A DNA stretch of 61,869 nt, counting the filler, from Dugesia japonica (lineage: Eukaryota), in assembly GCA_001938525.1 (NCBI GenBank). It is 6 parts of 6 records of this genome, joined end to end, with 100 filler letters (N's around TTAATTAATTAA, not from the genome) between each part and the next. Parts side by side here need not be neighbours in the genome. Positions count along the whole stretch, not along the records: positions 1 to 11,880 come from MQRL01489706.1; positions 11,981 to 20,382 come from MQRL01641616.1; positions 20,483 to 31,945 come from MQRL01646171.1; positions 32,046 to 40,772 come from MQRL01551412.1; positions 40,873 to 51,860 come from MQRL01608088.1; positions 51,961 to 61,869 come from MQRL01622383.1. The stretch is one strand, 5' to 3'. How positions within the stretch are numbered: position 1 is the stretch's first letter; each line of letters starts with the position of its first letter. The notes below the pieces were generated by a model. It was given only the letters and a program-made list of their open reading frames with translations, made no database searches and was not told the DNA's origin. Positions 3,269 to 60,315 of the stretch are shown here, piece after piece. Position numbers and translations under genes: made by a program.

Positions 3269-3620
3269 AGTAGGTAGATTGTTGCGCACTGTATCACCCC
3301 TCTCAAAGTCAACTTTTTTCAAGGTCACTGATACACTATACATGATTGGGATTGGTCTGTGATCTAGTACACTCAATTCTGATTGTTGGAAAATTTGAAG
3401 GTCGATTTTTCAAGGTCAAATTGGCACAGTATCCTGCGATCTGATTGTTCAAAGTAGTTCAAGGTCAAAGTGATATAGTATACCGCGTTTTGATTGGTCG
3501 AAACATTTCAAGGTCAAAGTGAGTTAGTATCTAGTGATCTGATTGTTAGAATATTTCAAGGTCAAATGAAAGTAGGTCAAGCTCATTTTCATGACAACTA
3601 TTTGTAGGTCAATGTCAACT
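3269..3620 (+). mobile_element. AGTAG-terminus element end (Polinton/Maverick-like TIR?) with TCAAGGTCA/TGATTGG tandem array
   Basis: Starts AGTAGGTAGATTGTTGCGCACTGTATCACCCC, shared with 11279, 32730 (rc), 37795 and 60106; followed by ~50-60 bp units containing TTCAAGGTCA and TGATTG(G/T). Confidence 0.7.
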
Positions 3621-3749
3621 ATCATTCAGACATGTTTAATAATTACTCTAACCTTTAATCCTCGTTCAGACTTAATATTATTAATTTCCGCATTAACATT
3701 ATATACTTAACCCAACATCAGAATCAAAAAATAAAGATTATATCAGTTT

Positions 3750-5960
3750 ATGTCGTGATTTTCTTACAAAGACTAATGAAATTAAAGACATTAAGAATTG
3801 CCCAATTGCGATTGCATGCTTTGACATAAAAGATGCTTTTGGTAGTGTTCCACACTGTTAATTTTGGCATTGCTATAATATATTAAGGTTGAAAATGACT
3901 TTGCTAACATCCTAGAACTTCTATACTCTGATATATCTTCATTCTATACTTGTAGTTCAATAATCATAACAAATATTCTAATCAGGAGAGGAGTCAAACA
4001 AGGCTGCCCATTTATATATGATCTTATTTAATTTGGCTATCAATTCATCACTCCAATCAATTTCTGCATCCCGCACAATACCTTTTATGATAGGGTCATC
4101 AAAAATTCAGACTCTTTCATATGCTGATAATTTGGCACTCGTTGCAACTAATACTGAAGACCTTTATAAAATAATAAATATGGCAATATGAACTGCAAAA
4201 ATCATTGGATTTGAATTTTGACCTGCTAAATGGGCTTATCTTAAACTACCTCAAACCAACTTCACCAGCAAAATCTCTATAAATGATAAGAAAATAAAAA
4301 ATTAACTATAAAATAATTTTATCAATATTTTGGCATTCCGGTCGGAGACAGAAATGACCAAAGTCTTTATGAGACGATACAACAAGTCATTGATGATTTA
4401 ACAAAAAGTTCTGATTCAGACTTACTAGGAGGGCAGAAGCTAAAGAAATACAAAAGTATTCCTACATTCTAGACTCACATTTGGATTCAAAATGCGCGAA
4501 ATCTAGCGCGAAAATTAGTGCCAATAGCCTTCCACAGAATAATCCAAATGTTAGTAACAACAATATTAGTAAGGTTTGTTTCCAAGTTAGGCGCATATTA
4601 AATCTTTCGAAACGATCTGAAATTCTTTACTTCTACAATTCAACCGAAATTAGAGGAGCTGCTTGCGTCGATCTGTTGGATGAATATCAAACTCAATGTG
4701 TTGTGCAATATTTTAAATTACTTACCTCAAGATGCATGTACACAAACAAAATCAATATAGACTCCTTAAGTCTCGCAGCAAATTCAAGAATAAATTAACT
4801 AAACCCATCTCTAAATAAATGTTTCGAATGGATAAATGGGAAAAAACATTAAAAACCTCAAATGCCAAGAAAACGCACTTTACGCGAAAATGAACTGCAA
4901 TATAATTTTTCAAAAAGACTCATGATACAGATATATCGTTAAATGTACTTAATAAAAAAATAGTCCTTTATATGACCAACAAGACAAGAGGAACGTATGT
5001 TATTAATCATACATCTCGTAAAGAAATTTCAAATATCATTTACAACTTAGTCTTTGATTCATACCCTGAAAATGGGAAAAAAGCAAAGGAAGCAACTTGA
5101 TATTCACAGCTATTCAAATGAGCCCTATTATTAATTAAATGATTTTCAAAATTGACCTCAATGAATTTTAGTGGAATTTTATTCACAGTGCACTAACAAA
5201 CTCTCTATCAATACGTGGAAGATCCTTTTATGAAAAAAAACTGTCGGCGCTGTTTTACTGAAAATGAATCTTTATCACATGTTCTTCAAAAATGCAAAAT
5301 GAATCAAGCAATAGCAATTGAAAGACATAATGCTTGCCTTGATATTATTATCAGTAAACTTATAACCTCAGATGCTATTGTTGAGGTCAATAGAATAAAT
5401 AAATATATTTCGGATTCTAGCGAAAGAGTGGATGCTACAGTAACTAATGTTGAAAAAAAACAATATATCTAATTGATGTCAAATGCCCAATAGACTCCGA
5501 AAAGAATTTTGAAGAGTGTGACAAAAGAAATTTAGATAAATATGATCTACTAAACAATAAAGTNAAAATAGCGAAGCCTGACTTTAAAGTAGAATTACAT
5601 ACTTGCATAATTGGATCACTTGGCTCAATTCTAACCGCAACTATCTGAATTCTAGAAAAAATTATCGAAAACTAAAATTTAATAAAAAGAATATTAAAAG
5701 ATTGCTCCAAACCAAATATAACCTACTCAGCAGAAATATGGAAGTTCCACAAAACTGGCATTAGAAACAACAAAATAACTTCCAATATTGAAGAAAAGTA
5801 TATAAAGAATTGAAGAAACGTGTGTGAGTTCCATGTAGAAGCAAAAACAAGACTGTTTGTATATTCAAACTTGTTATATTTAATAAATTTTATTATTACT
5901 ACAAACTCAAACACTGAGGAGATTATTTCTTCGACTTACAAGTGAGCTTTTATAAAAAAA
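3750..5960 (+). mobile_element. 5'-truncated, decayed non-LTR retrotransposon with RT and C-terminal restriction-like endonuclease (R2/NeSL/R4-type)
   Basis: Translated motifs ACFDIKDAFGSVPH, RRGVKQGCP, LSYADNLAL (YADD), YQYFGIP; CCHC knuckle CRRC...HVLQKC; ERHN, SERVD, LIDVKCP, KYDLL, IIGSLGS; A-rich tail near 5955; many stops and frameshifts. Confidence 0.9.
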
Positions 5961-6614
5961 AATGAAACTTACCATGATTATAGTTATCTTCATCGAAGAA
6001 TAAATTAATATTACGTATTGAATTTTAAAAATTCTTATATTTTATAATAATTAAACTACCGAAAATAGTTTAATATTTAGTTTTTGTCTGTAAAATTTAT
6101 TTTCGTTTTTCCGAATTTTTTTAAAATTCAAACAAACTAATACAAAAATAAAACAACAACTGGTGTATAGATGAACATTTGTTTTCTAGATTTGTTTACA
6201 AATCAAATTATTCAGGCATATTTATGACACTTAATCAATATACGTGATTTAATATTTGTTTGTTTATTTATTTGTTTCGTGGGTTTACTTATATTGATCA
6301 TGAAATATTAACCAAATTCATTTCTTCTTGGAAATCAATACGACAAATCAACAATTTCGGTAAATACTCGATATATTCTTTACAAAACTTATATAAACTA
6401 TTAGTGATTTTAATTATTTATTCATAAATATTTTAAATTTGTTTAAAATTTCATAAATAAATAAATAAAATAAAAATAAATAATTAAAACATTTTTTAAA
6501 ACGAATTAATAAAAAAACAATAATGTTAGAGCGCATACTTCGATGAAAAACACAAAACAACCAGTAAATAAATGATTAATCGATATAAAAATTCAACAAA
6601 ATTAATAATATTTT

Positions 6615-6716
6615 AGTAGTGGGTTAGGGTAAACAATGGGCCACCTGTGAATGGGTTAGGGTAAACAATGGGCCACCTGTGAATGGGTTAGGGTAAAAAA
6701 TGGGCCACCTGTGAAT
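6615..6716 (+). repeat. AGTAGT followed by 3 x 32-bp tandem repeat GGGTTAGGGTAAACAATGGGCCACCTGTGAAT
   Basis: Three nearly perfect copies at 6621-6716. Confidence 0.9.
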
Positions 6717-6739
6717 GAAATTTATTAAAATTTATTAAA

Positions 6740-7260
6740 ATTGATCAAATTTGAGCAAATCTTTCTTTATTTTAATTTATTTAATCGGCATGCTCAATTT
6801 TAGCTAATTTTGCTAAGAAAATTGCACAATGGGGTTCAATTTGGTCAACTTTAGTAAAACACTTCCCCGGTAATGACAATTATAGTATATTTTTGGTCGG
6901 TTATGTTCAATTATGGACTATTTTTGAGCAATTTGGGCAATCTTTAGGGCAATAAACACTTTAGAAAAGTCGATTTTTGGTAAATGGTAGTCAAAGTTGT
7001 TTTTCTTAAGGATGAATTTGTTCAGATTTATCATCTGGATGTTCAATGTTTGTCGGTTTTGTTCGAATTTGGTCAATAATTTGCTCGAATTTGCTCACAA
7101 TAGTCGACTTTGGTCTTTTTTGGACAAATTTGGTCAAAATTTCGCTCGAAAAGGTCAAATTTGGTCAAGTTTGGTTGAATTTAGTCGACTCTGCTCAAAT
7201 ATTTGATCACAATAGTCAATTTTGGTTGAATTTAGGTTATTTTGTTTACATTTTCAAGTT
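6740..7260 (+). repeat. Degenerate TTGGTCAAATT-rich repeat, with an inverted homologue at 9620-9830 and a similar tract at 39780-40030
   Basis: tcgactctgctcaaatatttgatcacaatagtcaattt (~7185-7222) matches the reverse complement of ~9641-9678. Confidence 0.65.
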
Positions 7261-7479: not shown

Positions 7480-7920
7480 TAATAAAGAATAAAGCCACAT
7501 ACAAGAGGTCCACAAACGTTCCCGTTGGAATGAGCTCTCTTAGGTATTCTTGAGTAGAATTGGTTGATGATCGACATTTAATTCTCTGAAAGCGTTGCTA
7601 ATAGACTCAGTTATGAATAATTGGGTAAAGGATCTAAGATGATAGCTCTTTTTTTGTTACACGTGTAGAGAACCTAATGGCACTTGTTAATATTCTTATG
7701 TGAAAATGTTTCTGATGTTGTCAAGATTGATTTTTGGGTTTGCTTTCATCAAAGGAGTGCCCTCTTTGATTGTCATAATAGCGAAGCTACAGTTAGGAAT
7801 AGCTAAACAGTCTGGAATCCTAAGATGTTCTTCTATAAACCGATCAATTTGGCTGTCACTAAACCAAAACTTCTCCAAGTTTGGTGGTTTTTCTACAATC
7901 AGATGGTGTGGTGACGGCGT
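7480..7920 (-). pseudogene. Ulp1/C48-like cysteine protease relic, probably from a mobile element
   Basis: Across three frameshifts: WFSDSQIDRFIE ... NINKCH*VL (HW) ... ILDPL ... SNGNVCGPLVCGF, i.e. the His-Asp-Cys order of clan CE proteases. Confidence 0.65.
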
Positions 7921-8741
7921 TCTGATTGTAGAACCTGATTGTCAATTCATAGGATTAGCAGTGTGTGTCTCATAATTGTCATTAATAGTTGGAGAGTGTT
8001 TTCTTTTGTTTCCTCTAGATTTTATGATCCTCGAAGCGATAATGATTTATCAATATTTTTGAACAAATTTGATCATAAACCAGTCTATATGATAGAGACT
8101 TTTAAGCTGAGAATGACTGTAATAGCTAAAAATCGCCAATTTTTTGTTTGGTGCTGACGGAAATTTGATAAACCTGTGAGTTTTTTGTATAATTTTTGAA
8201 AATTTTCTCGACTTGTATTAAAACATAGATCATTAGATAGAGAATGTTTTCCTAATCGAGAATCTCATCACTTAAAATCATCAAACTTAATTTTGACGGG
8301 AAAACATCGAAAGAACTTTGTCAAACATGAATATAAAACTGAAAATAAACTGACATGAATATAAAAATTATTTTTATATAATTTCATCCAAATTTAATGA
8401 TTCAAGTACTATTCGATTCAGAATGTTTCACTGAACAATAATAAAGGTGGTAAAAGTTGAGAAAATAAATTATTTTGAAAAAGATTCACGTATTTTTAAT
8501 TCTCAAAAATTAATGAAAATTTTAAATTTGATAATTATAAAAATATAAATTATTTCAAATGTAAACAATAGACCTTCTATTCAATATCGAATATTTTGCT
8601 GATCAAGAATAATATCACCTAAAATTTCCAAGCTTATATATGATGAAAACCATCAAATAACACGTACTTAATATTGGTTGGTTGTAACTTATCATTTAAA
8701 ATATAAAAATATTTCAAATTTGAACATCAAAGTATGTATTG

Positions 8742-10674: not shown

Positions 10675-11278
10675 TTAGGGGTGCAGAAAAGTAATGAGAA
10701 AATTTTATATTAAAATAAAAACTATTTTATTTATTAACAAAAAAACAATAAATCATTGATATAATTGTCATCATTGTTAATAACTCTTTGCCATCTATTC
10801 ATCAACTAATGAATCTCATTCAAAAAGAATTTGACTTCTTTTTCAACAAAATACTTACAGAGGTCCAATTTCATGTTTTCTAAACTTTTAAAAGTTTTAC
10901 CTCTTAAAGAAATGTTCGAGAAAACGTAAAAGGTAATAATCTGATGGGGTAATATCGCTAATATATAATGAATGTTGCAAAGATTCTTACCATAAATCTC
11001 TGATTTTGAAGTAAGTCATCTTTGAAATGTGCTGTGTTCCGTTATAATGGACAAAAAACGCCTTTTCTTTGCCAAAACAGATTTTAAAGTATCTAATAGT
11101 CTACAATAGAATTCACTGTTAATTGTTTGTCCCGATTCCTATAGCTGCCAATGCACTGGTTCTTTAAAATCCCATCAAACAGACAGTAATGCTTTTTTTG
11201 ATGAAAATTTGGATTTCGAGGCGGAAATGATTATTCACTAATATAACCATTGGTTTCCTTTATGTGAATTGTCATACA
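10675..11278 (-). mobile_element. Decayed mariner, 3' half, interrupted at 11279
   Basis: TA + TIR ttaggggtgcagaaaagtaatg at 10675; minus strand reads LYDNSHKGNQW, KKALLSV*WD, DITPSDYYLLR. Confidence 0.85.
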
Positions 11279-11710
11279 AGTAGATAGATAGTAGAGCACT
11301 GGATCAACCAATCGTCAAGGTCAAATTTTTTAAAGGTCAGTGATCTAGTATACTTGATTCTGATTGGTTTAAATAATTCAAGGTTGAATTTTTAAGGTCA
11401 GTGATCTAGTATACTGAATTTTGATTGGTGGAAAATCTCAAGGTCGAATGTTCAAAGTCAGTGATCAAGTATACTCGATTATGATTGGTTGAAATAATTC
11501 AAGGTGGAATTTTCAAGGTCAGTGATTTAGTATACTGGATTTTGATTGGTTGAAAATCTAAAGGTCAAATTCTCAAGGTCGAATGTTCAAGTTCAGGGAT
11601 CTAGTATACTCGATTCTGATTGGCTGAAAACTCAAGGTCAAAGTGATTTAATATACTCGATTTAGATTGGTTGAAATAATTCAAGGTGAATTTTCAAGGT
11701 CAGATTCATT
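11279..11710 (+). mobile_element. AGTAG-terminus element end with ~60-bp TCAAGGTCA/TGATTGG array, inserted in a mariner
   Basis: AGTAGATAGATAGTAGAGCACTGGATCAACC begins exactly where the mariner coding sequence stops; about 14 AAGGT(C)-type motifs and 6 GATTGG motifs. Confidence 0.75.
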
Positions 11711-14130: not shown

Positions 14131-14889
14131 AATAACATTCTTCTGGTATGAGGAACCTCAGCACACATTCAGTAGGGGATATTTGCGCACTGCCTCAAGG
14201 GGTGCAAACACCCACCCAGACGTAATCGGATTATTACATAAGTTATCCAATCAAAGTTCTTATATGGTAGCTTCTGACTTAGTGCCCATCCGTATAAATA
14301 TATAAACCAGACTTTCTAAACAATTAACCATAATAAATTTAATTTATTTAATAGCTATTCCATCCAAGTTCATTAAACACTATAAAATTAAATACAATCA
14401 ATAAACCAATTGTTGAAAATTATATGTAAAGTATGCCCCTGAGCAATAGGATTTTTTTCATTTTAGTCATAAATACATAGAAATGAAGTAAAAATTTCTA
14501 AAAATTACTAAAAGGATTTTTTTTAATTTTTAAGAGGAAAAAAGGAATGGAGAAAGCGGAGGTTCAAAAAGAGGGTAGGTGAGTTTTTTGCAGAGGTACA
14601 CGCAGAAATGCAGACAGTTGGTGAAGATGAAAGATAAATGATTATATTATTTTAGAAGTGTTTGAAAATAGTACAGAGTTTCTATGTAGTGTTCGAATAT
14701 CTTTTAGATTTTCAGAGAAGTGTCGGAATATTATAAAGAATTTTTGAGATATATTAAAAGTTTATACAGAATTTCAGAGAAGTGTTGGAAAATTATTCAA
14801 AATTTCCGAGTAGTTTGTGGAAATTAATAAAGATTTCACAAAAGTCATAAATTGTTATACGATGATAAAATATTTCATACTCTATTTAA

Positions 14890-18290: not shown

Positions 18291-19279
18291 TGTACGATAA
18301 AAATTGACCAAAACATTTTGTATTGAAAATTCGAATTTTCGACATTCCCGAGCAAACATTCGACTGTTCCAACTTGAATTCGAAATTTGTTTTCACATAT
18401 TCGTAACGACCAATCAAAATGGTTCCATACTAAAACAGTCAAAACAATGAAATTAGTAAAACATTCGGTGGCGGGGGAGCGGGGTAACTGTACCAGTACT
18501 GACAAATCTGCCTACTATCTTTGTATGATATTTTATTTTTGTTTTTATAACCTAGTGAATTTTTATCGGCGTTCACGGATCTTTTGTGCTCCATAACCTT
18601 GTCTCAAGTACTCCACCAAATAATTACAATTAGAATTATTTTATCTATATAATTATTATTTGATTTGAATAAATGAAAAATTTGATATTTTGAAATCAAT
18701 ATTAATTATTTCTGATTCTCCGGGAAAGTTTCATGTAATTAAATGTGCCCCATCCTTAAAAGGTTAAGAACCACTTTTATAATCACTGCGAATTTAGAAA
18801 ATTTCAAAAATATAACTTCATAGTTTATTTTCCAAAAATATTTTCAATAAAAAAATTGCCAAAAAAAAATTTTTTTTATTTGAAAACAGCAAATCATTTT
18901 AAATGTAAAACTCACTGTTCATTCAAAACATATTGTCTAGTCAAATTTAATTGATCGAGTTCTGAAAGAATAAAGACTGATTCATTTACGAATATTAATT
19001 GAAACTAAGAATATATAGATTTAGATCAAAACTAATGGAAATCTAAAGTTAAGTAAATAACGTAACTGTCTAGCCTGTAATTTATCATATTTATTTATTT
19101 AAACGATTTCAAAAAAATTTTAGAATTATGATTTTTTGATATAATTTCCAATATTATAAAATAATAAATTATCGAAATAAAAATCTATTCTTAAAATAAA
19201 ATAAATTCATTTATTTAAATAAATTAATTATAATTTATATATTGTTATCCAGTTTTCAATCGACTAAGATAACTATATA

Positions 19280-20382: not shown

Positions 20383-20482
20383 NNNNNNNNNNNNNNNNNN
20401 NNNNNNNNNNNNNNNNNNNNNNNNNNTTAATTAATTAANNNNNNNNNNNNNNNNNNNNNNNNNNNNNNNNNNNNNNNNNNNN
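20383..20482. other. Artificial assembly linker
   Basis: 44N-TTAATTAATTAA-44N. Confidence 0.95.
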
Positions 20483-20869
20483 TTAATATTATAAGTTGAG
20501 AAGAATTGTTATACTAATAAATTGTTTATGTTATTCTATTGTTTATTTGTTATCAATTTGTAAAAATGTAAATGTTAATTTTGTTTTGTTCAAACTAAAT
20601 TTAATAATATTTTCTTTAATTTTATAATTTCTTTAATCAATTTTTCATGTAATGTTTTCATTTTCCCAAACACGAAATTTCGGAGTTAATCAAAGAGAAT
20701 TACATTTTCAGATTGTCTCATTCTCTCACAATGTGACAAATTGTGATTGGAAGTGTTGAATTGTGATATTGTAACCATCGATATTATGATTGTTGACTTT
20801 TAATATTAGTCATTGTTTTTCATTATGAAACAACTCCTAAACCAGAAGAAAATAATTATAATTTATTGG

Positions 20870-21800
20870 TTTAAAAAATGCATTATTTGACATGTAGAAA
20901 TGTACAATTATTTTTTACAACAAGCAGAAATAAACATTATTTTTGTATCGGGTGTATGAATTGTTTTGTTGATTTCCAAAACATGAAAATCACTCTTTTC
21001 AAAATAATTATTACAAAAAAATGCCTTTTGTAGTTTATGGTGATTTTGAAAGTTGGACAGACAGAAATACTAAAAGACAAAAGCATTTATCTCTTGGAAT
21101 TTATGTAGTTAGTATATATCATATTTTAAATGAATACAAAGAATTTCATGGTTAAAATATTCATGAACAATTAGTTTGAATTTTTAAATCACCTAAATAA
21201 TAAATTAAATGATTTTAAAGAAAATAAATTAATTAAAGAGTTTAATGCGGTAGAGTTAACTTACCCTGATTTTTCAGAAAAAACTAAATGTAGATATTGG
21301 TGATAAAATATAAACTCAACTGAAAGGAACCCTATGTTAGATCATGATCATTTCGATGATGATTATAGAGGATTTGCTCATAAATAATGATATCTACAAG
21401 ATAAATCTGTAAAAAGATTATTTATTTTATTTTATTTTCACATTGCTTCAGGTTATGATAAATATTTAATTATCAAAGAATTATTAGCAAAATATCCACA
21501 TAAAGTAAAACGAATAATTCGTCATAGCGATAAAGTTTATATTTCATTTCAAAATGAAAATATTAGATTTCTTTATTCATAAAGATTATGTCCAGCTACA
21601 TCAATTTATACAATTTATAAATTATTAACTCAATCATCAAACTATAATTATTTGAGATTTAGAACCAAAGAAGATATCATTTCCTTATGAATATGTAAAA
21701 GGAGAAAATATACAACAAATAATTCAATTATTAAAATCAGATAATATTCCAACTCTACAAGATTTTTTCAATACTCTTCAAAATCAAAAAATAACCAAAC
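20870..21800 (+). mobile_element. Polinton/Maverick/adintovirus-type protein-primed DNA polymerase B relic (exonuclease part with EndoVII-like insert)
   Basis: FCIGCMNCF, MPFVVYGDFES, LDHDHFDDDYRGFAH, FHIASGYDKYLIIKELL, IRFLYS, ISFPYEY in the order known for Polinton pPolB. Confidence 0.85.
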
Positions 21801-21869
21801 AATAGTGTTAGATGAGTTTTGAGAACTCATCGGATTGTCAACATCAAAAGTCAACTACATAAAATTTAT

Positions 21870-32045: not shown

Positions 32046-32085
32046 AAAAAAAATAATTTAAAAAAAAAAAAAATTAAAAAAAAAA

Positions 32086-32240
32086 TTTTCTTCAAAAAAA
32101 AATTTCTCGTCAAAAAAAAAATTCTTGTCGAAAAATTCTCGTCAAAAAAATTCTCGTCAAAAAAAAAAATTCTCGTCAAAAAAAAAAATTCTCGTCAAAA
32201 AAAATTTTCGTCAAAAAAAAATTCTCGTCAAAAAAAAATT
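32086..32240. repeat. Tandem repeat ATTCTCGTC(A)n, about 8-9 units
   Basis: Directly visible. Confidence 0.9.
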
Positions 32241-32245
32241 CTTTA

Positions 32246-32730
32246 CCCTCCCCCCCCCGGGCGGGGTGTTCTATGAAAATAGTTCTTTGTTAAAATGGAC
32301 TTAGAAAATTTTTCGATAAAAAGTATGACTCCTGATCTATGATNNNNNNNNNNNNNNNNNNNNNNNNNNNNNNNNNNNNNNNNNNNNNNNNNNTGAAAAT
32401 AGTTCTTTGTTAAAATGGACTTAGAAAATTTTTCGATAAAAAGTATGACTCCTGATCTATGATTTTCATTTTTTGTTAAGTGAACATAAAAAAATTTTGA
32501 AAAAAAAAATTTTTAAATTTAACCAAAATTTGCATGAGTCATCGGCTTTGTCTTATTCATCGATGACTCATCTTTAGGCTTCTATGAGTCATACCGATGA
32601 CTCATCGATGACTCATCGTCTTTGTCTCGAGTCAACGATGACTCACACCTATGACTCATCATCACAGATATATTATTTCTTCTTCGGCGGGGGGGGAGGG
32701 GGTGATCTAGTGTGGTACTATCTACCTACT
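32246..32730 (-). mobile_element. AGTAG-terminus element end (reverse orientation) with TGA(C/G)TCA cluster
   Basis: Reverse complement of 32701-32730 is AGTAGGTAGATAGTACCACACTAGATCACC; 7 perfect TGA(C/G)TCA at 32535-32658; inverted C-run/G-run pair at ~32246 and ~32688-32700. Confidence 0.7.
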
Positions 32731-33965
32731 GACATTCTATAAATATTCTTTAAGTGAGGTCTATGAAAATATGAAATGAAAATTTGCATTAAAACCGATT
32801 AGAAAATAGACCACTTATGGCTAAATAGGGGTAGATATAGCTAGAATTAGCTAAATAGTGGTAAATGATAGAAGATGGTGGGAAATAAGTGAAAATATAG
32901 CCAAATTTGGCTAAATATGAGTATACCAGGAAAATAAAGGGTAAATGATGAAAAATGATGAAAGTAGCTGGAAATGGTGGAAAATAAAGAAGAATTGATA
33001 AAATGTAGACAAATTAAGCATATTAAATGACTATGTATCGAATAAATGCAGTATAATTACGACTACGCTAGCTCTATTATGTCCAAACTCATATTTTATA
33101 ATGGTAAATCTTCTATTTTTTTAAAAAGTTTTTCTATGATAAAGAGAACAAAGACTTACTGAATTGTTTTCCCACTTCTAAATGTTCTACTCCAACTCTA
33201 CTCTGGTCTTCTCTCACTTAATATCTATCTCAAACTTTCTACTAGTTTTTCGCACTCTTTATTGGCCTCCTCTTTCACTTGCTGGTCTTATTCGACAATT
33301 CACTAGTCTTCTCTCACACTCGCTGACTTTCTCTCACTCGAATCTGGTCTTTTACCATTATAATATGGTCTTCTCTCACATTTTATTATTAAACTTGATT
33401 ATTTATTATCACACTAAAAAAAAGTTCATCACAATAAAATTTTACGTCAAAATTTCAAGGTGTCCTCTTCACTTCCTCAGCAGAACATTAATGATTCATT
33501 TCTTATTTTCAATATATTTTGAATTAAATCAGTAACCATTTAAAACTCAATTTTAAAATTCTATACATTTATAATTGTAAAATTGGTTTTATGTGATTTT
33601 ACTCAATTCTATCACTTCACACAAACATGAAAAGTTATTGATTTATATCACAATATAAGCTTAGACTTCATATATAAACGTACATTTTCGATAATACAAT
33701 AATGTCACCTATAATCAACAGATTTTTCGATATTATGATACGTGCAATTTAAGAAAATTCTTTTGAAAATTATTTTGGAAATAATAAAAATTTATTGATT
33801 TTTCGCTAAACACAACACTTGATTTGGCCTATATAAATATGTGAGAATGTATAAACTGCTGATATTACTAATTCGATTTTATCGATTAACCAATGAGAAC
33901 TATTGTTTCCTTTACACATATAACGTGCTTAATTTAAATGATTGATTATTGTTCAAGGTAATTCA

Positions 33966-37637: not shown

Positions 37638-37806
37638 GTGAGGCATATATACCTCAGAATTTCCTAAATTTGTACCTAACATAATAAAGAAAATTATTTA
37701 TAATAGATTTATTAAAGTACAATTAAAATTAAATATACAAGGTTTAAAATAATTGTTACCAGATAAAATTTACAATTTAATAAGATTTAATACAAGTAAG
37801 TGGATA

Positions 37807-39457
37807 CCGTGTTTTCCTTATTAAAAAACACTGCATTCTATTTCCAGCTTTTCAAAAATTTATAAAAATAGATACATAAAAATTAGAAAGAATGTTTATA
37901 ATTATTTTGTTTATTGTAAATGTAATAAAAACTATTTATAATTTTATTAATTATAATGTCATTTATTCATCAATCACCAATGCATCGTCTTGTTCTTCGA
38001 AAAGGGCATCTGTCATCACTTGTATCATATTTTGGCTATTAACAAGAGGACCGAACTTTACATGCTTCATTATTGCCGAATCCTTCCTTGATTCACTCGG
38101 ATGCATATATGAAGCAATCAACGCATTGTTAACTACTTCAGGTGTTATTTTATCCCAGGGATTTTTAATCCATGTCGTGAATTCATCAAGACTTGGCTTG
38201 ATAGGATTTCCTCTTACATTTAATCATTAATTTCGTTTCTAAGATAAATCTTGAATGGATGGTTAATTACCAAATCAAGACTTTGAAGATATGCCGTAAG
38301 GCCAGATGGTACTATAATAGAATCGTTCTCTCTAATGCGCAAATGTTTTTTCATGCTCTTTTTACGATGAGTGGATGCGGAGTCCCAAACAAGAAGATGT
38401 CTAATGTTGTTAAAAATCCTAATTTGAGATTTCTGTCCAACCATTGTTTGATAATATCTTGAGTTGCCCAGCCTTTCTCGCTTTCAACAATATCGATACC
38501 ATTAATACTGGAAATTCTATTCTTTTTTCCTTTAGAAATGGTCATCGGTGTAACTTCTATACCATCACGCCTTTTTGCCAAAATAGATTTAACTCTAAAT
38601 GACTCATACCCGCAATATAAATAGAACTTTTTCTCTTCATGTCAACTGTTCTTTGATTGATATCACTATAATATAATGTTGTTTCATCCATGCATATAAT
38701 ATTAGAATTACTGTAGTTTGCTAAATTCGTATCTTCAATAAACTTGTTGTAAGACAAATTTCGTGCAACAACCTGCTCATCTTAAATTTTAAACAGGGTT
38801 GTTGGTGCACGCAAAGACAAATGAAATCTCTTCATTAGGTTAGAAAGCCAAGGACTCGCCTTAAACCCACTTTCACATGTCTTCGCAAGTTGAAATGCAA
38901 ATGCCTGGATATATCCGCGACTCACTATGAATCCACAGCTGCGTTTGTCTACAATCATGTCGAAGATATTGTCTTTCAGTTCTTCAANNNNNNNNNNNNN
39001 NNNNNNNNNNNNNNNNNNNNNNNNNNTATACTGATAACCCAAATGTTCCTCTTCGAATTCACTATTCCATTTGAAATTAGTCTGATATGAATGTTATTCT
39101 CTTTTGATACTCCAGAAAGTGACTTAGGTTCAAGTTGGCTGACAATCTCTTTTTTATACTCAATGCTATATGATTTTCTTCTCCCGGTCTTTAATTAAGG
39201 CTTGGTAATATAAACTTTTTAAATAATGAGCTATATAAAATTTATTGGCAATCGATTTTAGAAGAAAAATCTATAAAATACATTATGTTGTCTTTTCAAC
39301 TTTTGTCAAGATGGCTCATCGACATTATTTTGCTCCTTTGAATACTAGTAATTATTGAAATTCTTTATTAAAATCTATAACGCCTTCTATTCGGGCACTG
39401 CTTTCTATTTCCAAATATTATAAAACTAGCTACTGCCTTCAAATAGGGAAAACACGG
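37807..39457 (-). mobile_element. Full-span decayed pogo/Tigger-type transposon
   Basis: TIRs CCGTGTTTTCC / GGAAAACACGG with TA on both sides; CENP-B-type HTH (FKASPWLSNLMKRF), IICMDET, LLVWDSASTH, GLTAYLQSLDLVINHPFK. Confidence 0.92.
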
Positions 39458-40772
39458 TAGTAGCACAGAGAGTCGAGGTGTGCGCGAACCCCTCGGATTA
39501 GTGATGTAATTTTTGTGATTATCCGTAATTTGATAGTTTAATCTATGATGTAATTAATACATCGGAAATTGATTCCATCAATTAAATTTATTGTGTAATG
39601 TTTAATCTTTTAATTTTTTTATGTAATTTTTAATAATTAATTTTAATTGGTAAGATTTTTTCAAGCTTTTAAGGCGGTAAAATATTTTATAATGATTTTA
39701 GTTGGCAAAGGTTTTTCAAGCTTTTTAATCGGCAATTTTTTTTCAGACTTTTTTAAGCAATAATAATTTTGCGTAATTTTTGGGTGAATTTGTCGAATAT
39801 TTCCTCAAGATTGGTCAGTTTAGGTAATGTTTGGATGATTCAGTCAAATATGTCATTAATCTGGTTGATTTTGCTTCATTTTTTTGCGATTTTGTCAATT
39901 TCTTCGTTGTTTAAGTGAAGTTGACTTATTTTTGGACGACTAGATCAAATATTTTCTCGATTTGGGTAGTTCTTGAATAATTCGGTCAAATAGATCCTCG
40001 GAAATGGTTAATTTGGTTGATTTGGTAAAAATTTTCCTCAGCATTGGTTTTAATTAACTTTTAAAAGGTAATTTTGAAAATAAATTAGATTCAATGTATC
40101 TTTATGGTTAAAATTATATTAGCAAATTTATTAAGAATATAAAATTTTGAAATGATTTGTAACTTTTTATTGATTATATTGCAAATAAGATTGATTAAAT
40201 AAAATCAAATATTATGGATTTAATAAGTTTCAAATAATTTTGAGAAGAATATCTAAAACATTAATTTTAAGTGTAAAATACAGTGGTTTTAATCTTTTTA
40301 AAATAATAAGTGAAATTTAAGCTTTTACAATTTTAAAGATGAAAAAACCTTTAGAATTTTTATTTTTAATTAAACTGTTACAATAGTAGATTGATAGTGG
40401 TGCATAAGAACAGCACACATTCATTTACTCCCCGTGACGTTATGAAATTTAATCCTAATGCATTTAGTTAGGAATTTAATATTGAGTCATAAATTGCATC
40501 ATTAGGTAACTATTACATTACTGTTTTTAAATTTCTCTGTGTATTTAGTTGGGAAAACCTTTTGCAAACAAATTATGTCATGAGATTAATTTCATTGTCG
40601 AAATTTTATGTAATAGGATTAACTGTTTTCAAATTTTTCTGATATATTTAGTTGGGAAATTCTTTTAGTCTTTTTAGGTTGTAACTGTTTTTAAGTTTTC
40701 CCTGTGCATTTAGTTGGGAAAATTTTCTTTATAGGCTTTTGGTAATTTTTGAGAGAATTTGGTTTATCATTT

Positions 40773-53037: not shown

Positions 53038-56000
53038 ATTCAATGTGGACTGGATCACTCATTAGTTCTTACGGATAAAGGACGAGTATATTCCTGTGGT
53101 CTTGGTACTGATGGTCAAACAGGCTTACAAACATATGAAAATGTTTTCAGATTTAATGAAATTTCATTTCCTGAGTCCTCAATCGTAATCAAGTAATTAC
53201 ATTAAAATAACACAAAATATCTTTGATAAATAAAAAATTTCAATAATAAATTATGAATAAAATAAAATTACATTTGAGAAATAATTATTGAAAAACACTA
53301 AATAACGTTTTTAATAAATAAATATTAATGATTTCTTGCAATCTGATTGGTTGCCTACAATATTAGGTCGTTAAGTATTAGGTCCTTAGTTTGACAATCG
53401 ATATCTTTTAATATTTTACCTTGAAAATTATTTGCTTTCGTTTGAATGTTAAAATACGTCATCAACTTTTGATATTTCCAATTTATCAAAAACTATGTCA
53501 CATTAATATCGATTATAAACATTTAATTATTAAATTTTAATAAAATAGGATTTAGATTCTAGAATTTTAGTAAAATATAAAAAGTCTCTTGCAGTACTCT
53601 TGGATTTCATCGCGGCACACAGTTTGTGACACACTGTTCTAAATGAATTTGCAATGTGTAATACAATAACAACAACNNNNNNNNNNNNNNNNNNNNNNNN
53701 NNNNNNNNNNNNNNNNNNNNNNNNNNNNNNNNNNNNNNNNNNNNNNNNNNNNNNNNCAAAATCGCAATTTCTGAATCGCAGGTATCTTGAGATAAAGTAA
53801 AACCATAATATGCTTCCAAAATTAGACGATAGCTTCCAACTGGAGTTTTCTTTAGGTTGAATAATAACAAGACAAAATAAAAAACTACTTTTTTCTCTAA
53901 AATAGCTAAATCAATAATCAATACTTGCTCTATTTGAATTTATAATGATTGCAAATTCACTTTTGTTTAAATTAAGTTATTGTTTTATCTGAAGAAGAAA
54001 TTAATTTATTAAAATTTGGACCCAATTTTAGTATTAGAAAACGAATTGATAATTTTCAATTGCAATCAAAAATCGAGTCCTTTTTTAACTATTATTTGAA
54101 CACACACAAAAATAAATTTTGTCTAAAAATATTAGTTGTGATTTGGAACATGAATTATCTTTTAAGCACGTTTCAATTTCCGATTATATTGTCTTCTTAG
54201 ATCAAATTTTAAGAAACGATGGATATGTTAAAAAATTGGGCACATCTTTTATCGGAAATAGAATTTGCAGAAGACGACTGGTAAGAGCCCGGCTGAGATC
54301 GTATTGAGAAAGAAAATTAGCAGAGAAAAGTAGTACGAGTCAGAAGTTTCAGAAAGAACTAAAGAAAACATTTGAGAAGTGACTACTAATAGAAAATTCA
54401 AAATAGGAGAATATGTCCTCATCAAGGTAGAAACAAGAAATAAAAGTCAATACAGATTTGTATGTCCTTATCGAGAAAATTCACGAAAGACGGTATGCAG
54501 TACGGAGAAAATGGACAGCGATTAGAAATAAATGTGGAAAAACTTAGAAAGTTTCTTAAGAAAGAGGATATAAGGAAATAATTATTATTTAATAATTTCT
54601 GCCAATAGAAAGCGATTAAATTGAATATTAATATTTAATTAATTCTATCAACTATAGTTATCTAATCAGTTATCTGTTTAAGTAGTGAAATAAATTATGC
54701 CTAAAAATATTAGTTGTGATTTAGAAAATAAATTATCAATTTAAGATTTACCTAACATGGTATTCGTATTATTTTCGAATATGAGTTCCATCGTGGAACC
54801 AATGCAAAGCAAACAGTTCGGAACATAAACGAAGTGTGANNNNNNNNNNNNNNNNNNNNNNNNNNNNNNNNNNNNNNNNNNNNNNNNNNNNNNNNNNNNN
54901 NNNNNNNNNNNNNNNNAAGCCTCGTAGGCGACCTCAGACGAATGATAATCTGAAAGTTTTAGTTACTCTCAAATTAGCGACAAAGTTCAACGTTTCCATT
55001 CCAATAATATTAAATTGTTTTTACATGAAATTCTGACAGGAGATGAGAGTCCCAAACGCTAGAAATCATGGATTGATCCGAGTCAAGATTCAAAACAGAC
55101 TGCAAAGCAAAATTGTTTTGGAAAGAAAGCAATGCTCCGCGTTTGGTGGGATTAAAAGGGTATGGTATATTATTATCTTCTAAAACAAGGTGAAACTATT
55201 AAATCTGATCTCTATAAAAAGAATAATGGAGCTGAACAATTGTTTGATTACCAAATGTTCAGAATGGACCAAAAGACATGGTAAAGTTATTTTTTTCAAT
55301 GACAACGCACCGTCATATACTTCAAAAGGAGTAAAAAACACGTTTAAAGATCTAGCCTGGAAAGTACTCACCCACCCGCCATACTCACAAGATCTTGTTC
55401 CATTAGATTTTTATCTGTTCCGATCAATGGCACATGGACTTGCTGAGCAGCAATTTAAAACCTACGTAGATGTCCAAAAATAAGTCTCTGAATGGTTCGC
55501 CTCGAAACAAGAAAAATTCTTTTGGGACGGCATCCACAAGTTACCTGAAAGATGGGAGAAATTTGTAGTTAATAATGGTAATTTCTTTGAATAAAATATT
55601 TTTATGAATCTTTTAAAATTTTCGTGTATTGTTTTTCAAAAAAATCTGCATTACTTTCCCGTACACCTAATAATAGACTAGTTAAAACTTATTGGCAAAG
55701 TCATAAAGTAAGGCCGATGAGTTCCATATGAATTAAGTGACCAGCAGAAAAGAAATTGTCTAGAGGCTTTTTTAGTGTCGCGATATAAATGCGAACCTTT
55801 CTTCAACGTATTGAGACATGTGATGAAAAAAGGATTTCATTTTATCGACGTCTATGCAATTATATAAAATATTTAGTGACTTCTATGCAATTTTATAAAA
55901 TATTTAGTGACTTCTATGCAATTTTATAAAATATTTAGTGACTTGTTCGCAATTATATAAAATATTTAGTGACTTCTATGCAATTTTATAGTAAAAAATA

Positions 56001-59000
56001 GTATGCGGAGGAACATATTTGAGCAAATCTTACGTTTTTTCCATTGTGCAAATAATAATTTGTCAAATATAATTGATAACACGGGGAAATTGCTGCCGTT
56101 AATTACTGGAAATAAAAGAATTGCCATGAAAATTTTATATCAGAACCACAGTTATCATGTGACGAGTGTATTTATACGAGGAAAGCCTATTAGGACGAGG
56201 TATAAGGTATGGTGCATGAATACTGTATCAGGATATCTAGTAGATTTTGACAAGTATCAAGGAAAAAATTTTACAAAAAATGAAAAATATGAAAAAGATT
56301 TTGGTGCGATATGATAAAACAGATAATTTTGTCGTAAACATTCCTAACGATAAGAAGAGAAAATGTGATGATCTAACTTGTCCGTCAATCATAAGAACCA
56401 TGTGTAAAAAATGAAATATCGGTTTATAAACTGTTTTGAAATTTATCATTTAAGGAATTATTTTTTTTTTGTATATTTATACATATTTTGTCTATTTTTG
56501 TGCAATAAAATTAAAGATTATATGTTATTTATGTATGACTATCAATAAACATATAAAGTAGCTGAAGTGCTTAGCGTTGCCATATGGCAACGTCTTATAT
56601 CTTTGGCTAAAACATATTTTTTCGCAAAAACCCCATATTCTTTCTAAACAGATGTAACTAATATTTATTTAAAAGGAAATTTCAAATTTCAAAAAAAAAT
56701 TTAATTCAAGTTATTAAGGGTTAAATATCATCAATTCTTGATATTAAATTATTTTTAAATTATACTTTTTGATGGANNNNNNNNNNNNNNNNNNNNNNNN
56801 NNNNNNATATTTTGAACTTTTATAATTGATGTTACAATTCTACATTGATAGAAAAATTTCCTGTTGTGCTGACACTAATTTGTCCCTAACAAATGATAAT
56901 CGAATTTTCGGATGGGGAAACAACGAATATGGCCAATTGTTTGAACATATAAATGAAATTCAAATTAATCAACCAACTGAATTAATATTTGACAATAGTG
57001 AAGAAGTTCAAGATGTTTTAGCATTAGGCTCATTTTGTTTAGTTGTTACCAACACCGATAAAGTAATTATTTCAATTATAANNNNNNNNNNNNNNNNNNN
57101 NNNNNNNNNNNNNNNNNNNNNNNNNNNNNNNNNNNNNNNNNNNNNNNNNNNNNNNNNNNNNNNNNNNNNNNNNNNNNNNNTAGTATTGTATGTTGCAATC
57201 ATAATCAATTAGTTTCATTTCACGATTATGATTTTAGAACTAAGAAGGACGATAAATTATATTTGTAGTTAATACGTTCACTGTCATACCAGTTAAATAC
57301 AACTCGGATTAATGTTATGCTTAATACGACTACGTAGAAAAGCGGCGCAAGAAACGAGCGAAGGCTTAAGAAATTCTTTAAGTTATATGAAAAAATTAAA
57401 ACTGAAAAGGTGAAAATAATTTGATATTTCAAAGTAATAAGCTATTCTATTTAAATTGTCCAAGGTCGTCATGGTTCCATAAATTTATAATTATACTTAA
57501 AGACGATATTCAATTGGTCGTTCTTGTATTTATCTGCTTGTGACTGTCTAATCTTTATTTAAGACAGAATGCATGAAAAAAGAAATTTGGTGTGCCTGCA
57601 GACTAAAAAACGTTTGCGAATCACTGGTCTAAAGCCTGAACTGAATCGTTAAATTTTCAACTCATTATCAATTAAATCTTACTTTAAAGAATTCTATTTT
57701 ATATCGAAAAACGTAATCATTTTAAAATATTTTAAATTAAATGTATTTATTCAGTCTCTATTGTTTGAACAAAGATTAATGCGATTATACTGAATATAAG
57801 ATGACTATAAATTCTTAATTTTAAAAATTCTTAGTTATTAAATTTTTTAAAAATTTTTAAATACAAAATTATTTTATAATCTAATAAAACATTTTTACAA
57901 TAATATTTTATTAAAGTTACTATTTAATTCTATAGTAATTTTAATAACATATAATAAAAAAATTTATTATTAGATTATAAAATAATTTTGTATTTAATAA
58001 TTTTTAAAAAATTTAATAACTAGGAATTTTTAAAATTAAGATTTATAACCATCTTATATTCAGTATAATCGCATTAATCTTTGTTTAAATGTATTTGTTT
58101 AATCAATTCAAAAAATAAACATAAATTTAAATCTATATTATAAAAATAATAATCGCTGTAAAATGTTTTTTATTCATAGCAGTCACCAGCCTCAATAACT
58201 TTCTTCATTTTTTCAATAGATGCATTCAAGGCTTTACCCATTGGAATATTTATGAATTTTGGTAGATCACTATTTAGAAATGTTCTTATTTCATAAATAT
58301 GTTTAAAATCTGTAAGACTTCTCTCCAGTCTTTTAAAAAAATAATTGTCACAAATATTTATATCTGGTGAATATGGTGATTAACGAAGAGGTTTTACGTT
58401 TTTAGAGTCTAAGAATTCAATAGTATCGTGAGCAATATGTGATCGAGCGTTGTCATGCATAAGATACATATTTTGTGGAGAAAACTTTAATGAGATTTTG
58501 AAGAAATTGAATATCTCAGAATTGATCATTTCATTCCGTTCTAATATTTCAAATTAAAGGTACCACCTTTGTGAAATAGCAATAATGACCATTTACTTAT
58601 TTCCCATCGTTGATCTGACAGGAGTCTGAGTAGNNNNNNNNNNNNNNNNNNNNNNNNNNNNNNNNNNNNNNNNNNNNNNNNNNNNNNNNNNNNNNNNNNN
58701 NNNNNNNNNNNNNNNNNNNNNNNNNNNNNNNNNNNNNNNNNNNNNNNNNNNCTTTTTTTGTAATAAACCAATTAATTCATTACATCGATCAACACGAAGA
58801 GTTTTGTTGCCATCTGCAAGAACATGAGATACCCATGTTGTGTGATACCATAGAACCTCTAGATCTTCTCGAATTACACGTTGAACCATCTAATGGGTTA
58901 TTTGCAAATATTCGGATATTTCGTCAATAGTCATACTACCATATTCTTCTCTACACCTTTTAACATGATCAACGTTCCTCGCTTTTTCTTCTTCCACTTC

Positions 59001-59510
59001 CTTTCTGACGCTGAAAGGTTTATCTTTCTCCAGTACGAAATTGTCTCATAAGTCTTATAATTTGAATAACACTTATATATATCTGAAGCAATGCTTTATG
59101 AAGGATCTCATAAACCTCATAAAAAAATTTATTTGATAATTTGTAATAAAAAAAATAAAATATCACGATTTGTTTATTTTTATATTTTTGAAATATATTT
59201 ATTTCATAATCAGATAATGGCTTGGGGATTTGGAAAATTCAATGACCACGCAACAGCATATAGATATCCAACAGAAGTACAATTAATTGGAAATAATGGG
59301 GAAATTGTAAAAGAAAAGATAATTAAAATTCGAGGATCTGTTCATTATGCTGTGTTGATGACTATATCGGGTAGAATGTTTGTTGTTAGCAATTATCCAA
59401 GAGATAAGCGGAGCATAAATTCAGATAGATTTGTATCAAATGAAGTTATATTTCCTAGACCTGTTATTGATTTCTGCAGTGGTTCTGATAGTATTTTCTA
59501 CTCTATGTGA
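53038..59510 (+). CDS. RCC1L: RCC1-like protein (RCC1L/WBSCR16 orthologue), 3' exons 53038-53192, 56852-57062, 59214-59510
   Basis: Phase-compatible GT-AG splicing gives CGLDHSLVLTDKGRVYSCGLGTDGQTGL...IFGWGNNEYGQL...QINQP...IMAWGFG...VIDFCSGSD*, matching recalled RCC1L motifs (CGQDHSLFLTDKGEVYSCGWGADGQTGL, LFGWGNSEYLQL). 5' exons not found. Confidence 0.85.
53600..53900 (-). mobile_element. Mariner N-terminal fragment, intronic
   Basis: LLLFNLKKTPVGSYRLILEAY...LSQDTC resembles the mariner N-terminal HTH. Confidence 0.6.
53975..54100 (+). mobile_element. Penelope-like N-terminal fragment
   Basis: LSEEEINLLKFGPNFSI motif typical of PLE N-termini. Confidence 0.55.
54119..54762 (+). mobile_element. 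Gypsy family B 3' end: IN tail, PPT, LTR 54569-54757, then TGGTA
   Basis: FKIGEYVLIKVETRNKSQ; PPT aagaaagagga; LTR homologous to 30148 and 48372. Confidence 0.85.
54763..55670 (+). mobile_element. Decayed mariner, intronic
   Basis: IFEYEFHRGTNA, KAMLRVWWD, NDNAP, HPPYSQDLVPLDFYLFRSM; TIR ttactttcccgtacacctaa + TA. Confidence 0.9.
55850..55992. repeat. 31-bp tandem repeat GACTTCTATGCAATTTTATAAAATATTTAGT, about 4.5 copies
   Basis: Directly visible; a second short mariner fragment (VPYELSD, RIETCDEK) precedes it at 55675-55845. Confidence 0.9.
56003..56724 (+). mobile_element. Internally deleted piggyBac (PGBD3-like) with right end
   Basis: MRRNIFEQILRFFH, FIRGKPIRTRYKVW, Cys-rich tail; subterminal palindrome CGTTGCCATATGGCAACG; terminus AAGGG-TTAA at 56716-56724. 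Confidence 0.88.
57768..58085. mobile_element. MITE-like foldback with ~125-bp inverted arms
   Basis: aacaaagattaatgcgattatactgaatataagatg ... catcttatattcagtataatcgcattaatctttgtt. Confidence 0.85.
58170..59050 (-). mobile_element. Decayed mariner, intronic
   Basis: WVSHVL, LMHDNARSH, SPYSPDINICD. Confidence 0.85.
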
Positions 59511-59952
59511 ATAAATTGGCAATAGTTGTATTAAATATCACTTGAAAAAGCAAATGTCAACATTTGATATGCATTTTAGAGATAAAATGTAAAAGAATAC
59601 TATTTTATGTGGCTCACAGTAACTTTTACGGGGAATGATTCATTTGTAAATCATTTAATAAAATTTCTTTTTGAACTTTNNNNNNNNNNNNNNNNNNNNN
59701 NNNNNNNNNNNNNNNNNNNNNNNNNNNNNNNNNNNNNNNNNNNNNNNNNNNNNNNNNNNNNNNNNNNNNNNNNNNNNNNNNNNNNNNNNNNNNNNNNNNN
59801 NNNNNNNNNNAGAGTAATTGTTGGACATAACCATTGATCGTTTTTCAGAATTCATTTAAAATAAAAGCTTTTAATAAAAAAAAATTTTGATTGAAGCTTT
59901 TATTTTAAATGAATTATCATTATTATCATTATTATCATTATTATCATTATTA

Positions 59953-59984
<32 letters not shown>

Positions 59985-60105
59985 GTTATTATTAATATTA
60001 TTATTATTATTATAAGATAAATTAGTAATAATATCTAGAAGGATAAAATAATTATGTGAATAAAAATTACCAACGAGGTGGTCATTAATCACTATTTCTA
60101 GTTGT

Positions 60106-60315
60106 AGTAGGTAGATAGTGGCGCATTGATTTTTCAATTAAGACCACCCCCGGGCATAAAAATTTAAAAGAAAATTAAAAACGGGCATAAAAAATTTAAA
60201 AGAAATTTAAAAACTGGCATAAAAATGTAAAAGAAAATAAAAAACGGGCATAAAAATGTAAAAGAAATTAAAAAACGGGCATAAATTTTAAAAGAAATTT
60301 AAAAATGGGCATAAA
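60106..60315 (+). mobile_element. AGTAG-terminus element end with 6 x ~31-bp GGGCATAAAAA tandem array
   Basis: AGTAGGTAGATAGTGGCGCA...CACCCC, then units at 60151, 60182, 60214, 60245, 60276 and 60306. Confidence 0.7.

What the first reader, a model, noticed from the sequence alone, without database searches (positions are those of the whole stretch)
3269..60315. Recurring AGTAGGTAGATAGT terminus defines an unannotated mobile-element family with exchangeable subterminal motif arrays
Seen: the same ~20-30 nt end (consensus AGTAGGTAGATAGT..C.CA, often followed by CACCCC) occurs at 3269(+), 11279(+), 32730(-) and 60106(+), and at 37795(+) once the pogo is removed; 6615 has a shorter AGTAGT start. 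Most copies are followed by a different GC-richer tandem array in otherwise very AT-rich DNA. Knowledge: Polinton/Maverick TIRs begin 5'-AG with short terminal repeats and contain tandem repeats, and a Polinton-type pPolB relic lies in this window (20870-21800). Inference: these are ends of diverse Polinton-like or non-autonomous derivative elements that keep a common replication/integration end but swap regulatory arrays. No complete element with both ends lies inside one segment.
Basis: partly seen in the sequence, partly recalled or inferred. Interest (0 to 1): 0.85.

Follow-up and report, generated by a model that had tools for sequence, protein, structure and literature searches.

The report
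Decayed Polinton-type transposon ends
The repeated 23-base motif is real and most likely marks the leftover ends of several old Polinton/Maverick elements (virus-like giant transposons), a known kind of end; the idea that these ends swap their neighbouring repeat arrays is not shown.

Summary
The motif is real: 6 hits against 0.29 expected. 18516 is doubtful; 6615 is not a copy. It behaves as an insertion end, cutting a mariner transposase and a Ty3-like relic. Polinton link: a 24-codon protein-primed polymerase fragment lies 55 bases inside the 14171 end, and AGTAGG//CCTACT with 6-bp duplications is a published Maverick end. The larger polymerase relic is real but lies in a segment without the motif. 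No end pair, inverted repeat or target duplication was found. The arrays are not all different (3269 and 11279 are homologous) nor all GC-rich, and exchange is not shown; faster turnover of arrays than of ends explains the data. One oddity: 3269 and 32730 share an outer 84-bp block but differ inside. Verdict: probable decayed Polinton ends, known kind, interest 0.27.

The parts
3269..3300 (+). Conserved element end (AGTAGG start)
3303..3566 (+). Subterminal array of TCAAGGTCA/GATTGG-bearing units (about 49 bp), homologous to the 11279 array; a non-LTR retrotransposon relic follows from about 3700
   Evidence: RVT_1 E 4e-7
11279..11310 (+). Conserved element end (AGTAGA start) that cuts a mariner transposase; interior runs off the segment after 602 bases
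11310..11703 (+). Subterminal array, alternating 14-16 and 45-49 bp units (period about 61)
10675..11278 (-). Mariner relic cut by the 11279 end: the Pfam DDE match begins at profile position 2, three bases from the junction
   Evidence: PF01359 E 8e-13
14171..14217 (+).
   Evidence: 24.9 bits, 0 of 60 shuffles; E 2e-4 to the Ty3-like copy at 28599
14226..14297 (-). 24-codon fragment of a Polinton-type protein-primed DNA polymerase (motif A region), 55 bases inside the 14171 end
   Evidence: 62% identity, E 1.7e-4; 15.3 bits; reversed control 4.6; 15 shuffles, best 8.7; not found by Pfam or the word-indexed search
18470..18516 (-). Doubtful end facing 14171; no shared inverted repeat or target duplication with it; degenerate 158/316-bp repeats at 17574-18286 lie inside
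   Evidence: 9 of 60 shuffles
32699..32730 (-). Conserved element end (exact 14-mer); interior runs off the segment after 685 bases
32534..32660 (-). Inner array of 11-bp units with seven TGASTCA words
32077..32242 (-). Outer A/T-rich array of 16-19 bp units
37795..39490 (+). Element end split by a pogo (37807-39457, TA on both sides); A/T-rich 28-bp repeat at 39577-39653
40385..40416 (+).
60106..60147 (+). Conserved element end (exact 14-mer)
60151..60315 (+). 31-bp array, GC 0.21; a 5-of-6 match to the left flank lies at its far edge; host-like coding DNA follows
2980..3061 (+). Block X, copy 1: ends 207 bases outside the 3269 end
32730..32813 (-). Block X, copy 2: abuts the 32730 end, sharing its first A
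20830..21802 (+). Broken N-terminal half of a Polinton-type protein-primed polymerase (stops and frame changes); in a segment with no copy of the motif
6615..6717 (+). AGTAGT start plus 32-bp array; not a copy of this motif, possibly an end of another element

Best explanation
These are left-over terminal-inverted-repeat ends of several old, decayed Polinton/Maverick lineages or their deleted derivatives. SHOWN: a conserved end of about 23 bases starting with AGTAG, a sharp outer boundary that cuts other transposons, GC-richer DNA and usually a tandem array just inside, and one end joined to a polymerase fragment. INFERRED from what is published for Mavericks: the short repeat at the tip (AG at positions 1-2 and 4-5) serves jumping-back initiation by the protein-primed polymerase, and the end is what the integrase inserts, leaving a 6-bp duplication. 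That double use keeps the first 23-32 bases conserved across families, while the inner part of the inverted repeat gains, changes and loses tandem units within each lineage. The other end of each copy is lost by deletion or lies beyond a contig break. The copies are now inert; nothing here could move without proteins from an intact element elsewhere.
For: Motif far above chance. Conservation starts abruptly: positions 1-5 invariant in 6 of 6 ungapped copies, outer positions mixed. 11279 cuts a mariner at the start of its DDE domain; 14171 abuts a Ty3-like relic; block X stops at the 32730 start. Polymerase fragment 55 bases inside 14171; chance of lying within 130 bases inside one of 8 starts is about 0.017. 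In the vertebrate Maverick table 21 of the 29 rows seen with an AGTAGG start end in CCTACT, 13 of these with identical 6-bp duplications, one only 2,085 bp long with no gene detected (30 of 37 places shown). In the one homologous pair the end is better conserved (25 of 32) than the array (68%), and the array differs by local unit duplication. 3 of 8 ends face a contig break within 700 bases, p 0.014, as long repeated interiors would cause.
Against: No paired end, inverted repeat or target duplication for any of 9 starts tested; the one convergent pair fails both. No integrase, ATPase, protease or capsid match in the interiors scanned, although the same scan also missed the real polymerase relic. 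The linking fragment is only 24 codons, was not found by Pfam or the word-indexed search, and could be a neighbour into which a short element inserted. Only 6 bases could be compared with published ends. Seven to eight ends in 60 kb is far denser than the median 8 Mavericks per vertebrate genome. Host-like coding DNA follows 60106 within about 400 bases, so that copy is very short. In both junctions with a comparator (11279, 32730) the first A could belong to the target.
Confidence: 0.68

Rival explanations
1. One reading: one mobile family of Polinton-dependent elements keeps a common end and exchanges subterminal arrays by recombination at the conserved end.
For: 3269 and 32730 share the outer block X (54 of 64 identical) and the most similar first 32 bases (26 of 32) yet have unrelated arrays; random placement gives such a pairing in 0.8% of trials, a test chosen after seeing it. 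Arrays are rich in words that resemble transcription-factor sites: 9 of 10 YCAAGGTCA words lie in the 3269/11279 arrays, 7 of 12 TGASTCA sites in the 32730 array (factor names recalled).
Against: The ends are about equally alike whatever the array. Copy 1 of X is separated from the end by 207 unique bases, which fits two insertions into one repeated target as well; X mismatches lean to one codon position (6, 1, 3), as in coding DNA. Any tandem array multiplies whatever words it holds. No two copies share a body and differ only in the array.
Confidence: 0.12
2. Ends of a foldback-type cut-and-paste transposon (Galileo/FB or Mutator-like) with internally repeated inverted repeats that bind transposase; the polymerase fragment is only a neighbour.
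For: Galileo's long inverted repeats hold tandem repeats that expand, contract and are proposed to be secondary transposase sites (PMC3573991 passages). High copy density suits such elements. No Polinton gene in most interiors.
Against: The AG start matches published Maverick ends over 6 bases; other superfamilies start otherwise (recalled, not tested). No transposase linked to any end was found. Flanks show no fixed target. The polymerase fragment lies inside an end.
Confidence: 0.13
3. A one-ended or asymmetric element (Helitron/Helentron-like, rolling-circle), with internal arrays; block X or an array edge would be the other end.
For: Only one kind of end is seen. At 60106 a 5-of-6 match to the left flank lies at the far edge of the array, 1 such case in 7 tested. 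X abuts an end head to tail.
Against: No X copy lies downstream of any start. Read on the other strand the end is CTACT, not the CTRR end recalled for Helitrons, and no fixed A/T or TT target is seen. No Rep-helicase match in the parts scanned. The near-duplication is within reach of chance.
Confidence: 0.05

Closest known systems
Polinton/Maverick elements with AGTAGG//CCTACT ends (tuatara and axolotl fossils, Barreat and Katzourakis 2021, PMC8097293 supplementary table)
   Same: First six bases AGTAGG in 5 of 8 starts here (AGTAGA in 2, AGTAAG in 1); decayed copies, some without detectable genes; polymerase of the Polinton type in the same genome.
   Different: The table gives only 6 terminal bases, so positions 7-23 could not be compared. 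No pair of ends or 6-bp duplication seen here. Density here (7-8 ends in 60 kb of short scaffolds) is much higher than reported per genome. The host here is a 27% GC eukaryote, not identified.
Canonical (AGT)2 and (AG)3 Maverick ends (PMC8097293 section 7; Kapitonov and Jurka 2006, recalled, not held)
   Same: AG start with a short terminal repeat suited to jumping-back initiation; 6615 starts with AGTAGT.
   Different: The sixth base is G or A rather than T, followed by two more RTAG-like steps and a GCAC-like box at 18-21.
Galileo and other foldback-type transposons (PMC3573991)
   Same: Conserved tip with variable tandem repeats inside the inverted repeat; solo-end and chimeric copies.
   Different: P-type transposase, no polymerase; no such transposase is linked to these ends.

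Membership tests
Polinton/Maverick | 5'-AG start with short terminal repeat (AGTAGT, AGAGAG or listed variant) | tested here: met
   AGTAG invariant in 7 of 7 aligned copies; AGTAGG//CCTACT listed for Mavericks
Polinton/Maverick | Matching inverted repeat (46-1,447 bp in vertebrates) at the other end | tested here: inconclusive
   No partner end in any segment; 14171+/18516- share no inverted repeat, but 18516 is doubtful and 3 of 8 interiors are cut within 700 bases by contig ends
Polinton/Maverick | 6-bp target-site duplication | tested here: inconclusive
   0 of 9 starts have their 6-bp flank repeated after a matching end; one recurrence after a bare CT for 18516. No complete element to test
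Polinton/Maverick | Protein-primed B-family DNA polymerase within the element | tested here: met
   As a 24-codon fragment inside 1 of 8 ends only; not confirmed. Larger relic unlinked
Polinton/Maverick | Retroviral-type integrase | tested here: inconclusive
   No Pfam match in interiors scanned; the scan also missed the real polymerase relic, and interiors are truncated
Polinton/Maverick | Packaging ATPase, adenovirus-type protease, major and minor capsid proteins | tested here: inconclusive
   Same scans, no match, same low sensitivity
Polinton/Maverick | Length about 13-25 kb for intact elements | not testable with these tools
   Segments are 8.4-11.9 kb; genome not available
A described Repbase/Dfam family | Full match of end and arrays to a deposited consensus | not testable with these tools
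   No repeat library is offered; supplements searched held no usable sequence
Foldback-type cut-and-paste (Galileo/P, Mutator) | Transposase between long internally repeated inverted repeats; 7-9 bp duplication | tested here: inconclusive
   No linked transposase in the interiors scanned; only 6-mer duplications were scanned
Helitron/Helentron | TC start, CTRR end, A/T or TT target (recalled) | tested here: not met
   End reads CTACT on the other strand; outer base mixed T, A, C
Kolobok or Tc1/mariner | TTAA or TA directly outside the end (recalled) | tested here: not met
   0 of 9 flanks end in TTAA or TA

The most novel reading that the evidence does not exclude
A very abundant class of short, gene-less parasites of Polintons (about one end per 8 kb here) that keep only a 23-base replication and integration origin and exchange cassettes of transcription-factor-site arrays by recombination at that origin; 3269 and 32730, with the same outer block and different arrays, would be a fossil of one exchange. 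Such elements would scatter ready-made enhancer arrays through the genome. A phrase search for non-autonomous Polintons or Mavericks returned 1 paper, about Tlr1; gene-less short copies do occur in the tuatara table.
Probability: 0.12. Interest if true: 0.65.

Novelty: new member of a known kind. Interest (0 to 1): 0.27.

Why it matters
If the best reading holds, the value is practical: a 23-base probe that finds the ends of many diverged Polinton families in this genome and defines which terminal bases stay conserved beyond the published six, a lead for the still untested Polinton origin and integrase site. It changes no concept. If the bolder reading held, Polintons would have MITE-like parasites that spread arrays of factor-binding sites, which specialists would find new.

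Tried and rejected
1) 6615 and 34824 as copies: background scores. 2) 14171/18516 as one element: no inverted repeat, no duplication, flanks not halves of one gene. 3) 6615 paired with ACTACT at 10646-10651: flanks differ; an inverted similarity 7000-7223 / 9640-9805 exists but gives no end. 4) A shared T-rich interior between 37795 and 6615: not above null, 26 of 60. 5) More copies of block X: none. 6) Pfam scans of interiors and flanks: no Polinton gene; segment 5, most of segments 3 and 6 and parts of 1, 2 and 4 were not scanned with Pfam, only with my polymerase profile. 7) Word-indexed protein searches for the relic, the fragment and an RCC1 exon: no hits; the host stayed unidentified. 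8) A protease-like reading of 7480-7940(-), by eye: no Pfam, PDB or named Atlas support. 9) Atlas search of the gene piece at 60724-60963: no usable hit. 10) Rfam: 0 matches. 11) Prokaryotic genomes: 6 exact hits of an 18-base pattern, at or below the roughly 17 expected at even composition (my estimate), not followed. 13) Kapitonov and Jurka 2006 is not held; the adintovirus supplement is cut before any sequence; bioRxiv supplements could not be seen. These may hold invertebrate Polinton ends that match more fully.
Full report
SETTING. The window is six unrelated segments of 8.4-11.9 kb joined by 100-base spacers, from a eukaryote of about 27% GC rich in decayed transposons. Links between segments mean only 'same genome'. 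The host was not identified (one search found nothing).

1. OBSERVATION. The 14-mer with up to two mismatches occurs 6 times against 0.29 expected. Each of the four intact copies passes leave-one-out scoring, 0 of 40 shuffles. The 37795 copy is split by a pogo at 37807-39457 with TA on both sides; scored without it, 2 of 100 shuffles reach it. A gapped profile trained on the four adds 14171+ and 40385+ (0 of 60 shuffles each), leaves 18516- doubtful (9 of 60) and rejects 6615 and 34824 (60 of 60). An ungapped nucleotide HMM was less sure of the new copies (E 0.07 for 40385, 0.74 for 14171). Positions 1-5, 9-11 and 20 are invariant in six ungapped copies and the outer flank is mixed. Arrays begin within 150 bases inside 4 of 8 ends against 4.5% background. 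Two details of the finding fail: the 3269 and 11279 arrays are the same family (68%, E 1e-26), and three of six measured arrays are A/T-rich; the GC-rich part is the first 60 bases.

2. IT IS AN INSERTION END. At 11279 the outer flank is a mariner whose Pfam DDE match starts at profile position 2, three bases from the junction (E 8e-13); the front of the transposase is gone. At 14171 the flank is a Ty3-like relic. At 32730 the flank is an 84-bp block X that also occurs at 2980-3061 and stops at the motif. At 11279 and 32730 the first A could equally belong to the target; its invariance argues that it belongs to the element (inference).

3. LINK TO POLINTONS. The relic at 20830-21802 is a broken N-terminal half of a protein-primed polymerase: 110 hits; of 12 long hits tested, 6 match PF03175 and 11 match PF02945. 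It lies in segment 3, which has no motif copy, so it is weak support. Using those hits as queries revealed a second piece: 24 codons at 14226-14297 on the minus strand, 62% identical to the motif A region of P0006, 55 bases inside the 14171 end. A profile of six long hits gives it 15.3 bits against 4.6 for the reversed window and at most 8.7 in 15 local shuffles. Against this: Pfam and the word-indexed search did not find it, and no more polymerase follows it. In print, vertebrate Mavericks end in (AGT)2 or (AG)3 with 6-bp duplications, and these repeats are expected to serve jumping-back initiation (PMC8097293). Its supplementary table lists AGTAGG 37 times; of 29 rows seen, 21 pair it with CCTACT and 13 of those have identical 6-bp flanks, in tuatara and axolotl. 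Five of the eight starts here begin AGTAGG.

4. WHAT IS MISSING. No start has a partner end with a duplicated flank (0 of 9). The convergent 14171/18516 pair shares no inverted repeat. Pfam scans of the interiors found no integrase, ATPase, protease or capsid, but the same scan missed the real relic, so this is inconclusive. Three of eight ends face a contig break within 700 bases (p 0.014). The 60106 copy is followed within about 400 bases by host-like coding DNA paralogous to 513-1004, so it is a short remnant.

5. EXCHANGE OF ARRAYS. Outside the 3269/11279 pair, similarity between copies stops by base 32 (two further pairs scored just above their nulls, 36 and 33, against 113 for the real pair). 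The three best ends are equally alike (25, 26, 25 of 32). In the homologous pair the end is better kept than the array, whose period differs (49 against 61) through a duplicated 14-16 bp sub-unit. Slow ends with fast arrays in separate lineages explain this without exchange; such turnover is described for Galileo. The one hint for exchange is block X outside both 3269 and 32730 (post hoc p 0.008); a 207-base unique spacer in one copy makes two insertions into a repeated target equally possible. The arrays hold words like nuclear-receptor, CCAAT and AP-1 sites (names recalled), but function is untested.

6. MECHANISM. Shown: conserved end, insertion boundary, arrays, one polymerase fragment. 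Inferred: terminal repeat as protein-primed origin, integrase substrate with 6-bp duplication, selection on about 23-32 bases, later decay by deletion and nested insertion (pogo, non-LTR element). Confidence 0.68; rivals 0.13 (foldback-type), 0.12 (exchange model), 0.05 (one-ended element).

7. LITERATURE SEEN. PMC8097293: sections 7 and 8, passages, supplement rows. Passages only: PMC10748475 (supplement search 46), PMC8502044 (supplement cut), PMC3014272, PMC5753468, PMC5499653, bioRxiv 10.1101/2025.02.07.637071 (74), PMC6431247, PMC3573991. Listings only for the rest of ten searches. Kapitonov and Jurka 2006 is recalled. I do not claim that the family is absent from Repbase or Dfam; they could not be searched.

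8. VERDICT. A real feature, most likely decayed Polinton/Maverick ends of several families: works like a Polinton end, membership probable but unproven for lack of a paired end. New member of a known kind; interest 0.27. Boldest reading not excluded: abundant gene-less Polinton parasites with exchangeable arrays, probability 0.12, interest 0.65.

Noticed in passing
11881-11980, 20383-20482, 31946-32045, 40773-40872, 51861-51960: Artificial 100-base spacers (44 N, a 12-base word, 44 N) join six unrelated segments.
   Followed up: yes
60496-60966(+) and 492-1004(-): Two paralogous gene-like pieces, 28% identical, apparently with short introns; no Pfam or Atlas name.
   Followed up: partly
7480-7940(-): By eye resembles a Ulp1-type cysteine protease relic inside the stretch that starts at 6615; not supported by Pfam or PDB, Atlas gives only unnamed clusters at 0.95.
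   Followed up: partly
7000-7223 and 9640-9805: Inverted similarity (71-87%) around the stretch starting at 6615, hinting at a separate symmetric element whose right end was not found.
   Followed up: partly
21808-21874(+), 34832-34953(+), 44110-44236(-): A three-copy dispersed repeat; one copy starts right where the polymerase relic ends, another sits next to the chance 14-mer hit at 34824.
   Followed up: partly
14892-15336, 45642-46089, 61794-61869: Three-copy repeat (83-87%) with an internal 17-bp array; unclassified.
   Followed up: no
57764-58089: A 326-bp near-perfect palindrome (90%), MITE-like, with a partial copy at 45484-45575.
   Followed up: no
28014-30713, 35362-35991, 48372-52326, 54108-54762: Several decayed copies of an LTR retrotransposon of Ty3 type (78-88% alike); the family name is by eye from the translations.
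   Followed up: no
3700-5950(+): Non-LTR retrotransposon relic (RVT_1 E 4e-7) inserted just after the 3269 array.
   Followed up: partly
52930-59510 and 42170-42830: Host genes broken up by repeats: an RCC1-repeat gene (Pfam) and an ankyrin-like gene (by eye).
   Followed up: partly
1903-2354, 2683-2947, 15671-17054, 36464-36621, 55841-55990: Further tandem arrays not preceded by the motif; arrays are common in this genome.
   Followed up: no
about 1100-1430(-): DC_STAMP Pfam match (E 2e-6) in a stop-ridden frame, probably due to composition.
   Followed up: no
32274-32343 and 32394-32463: Identical 70-base stretch on both sides of a 50-N gap, probably an assembly overlap artefact.
   Followed up: no
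17851-17861, 18171-18180: The TCAAGGTCA-like word of the 3269/11279 arrays also appears in the repeats inside 18516, on the opposite strand relative to that end.
   Followed up: no
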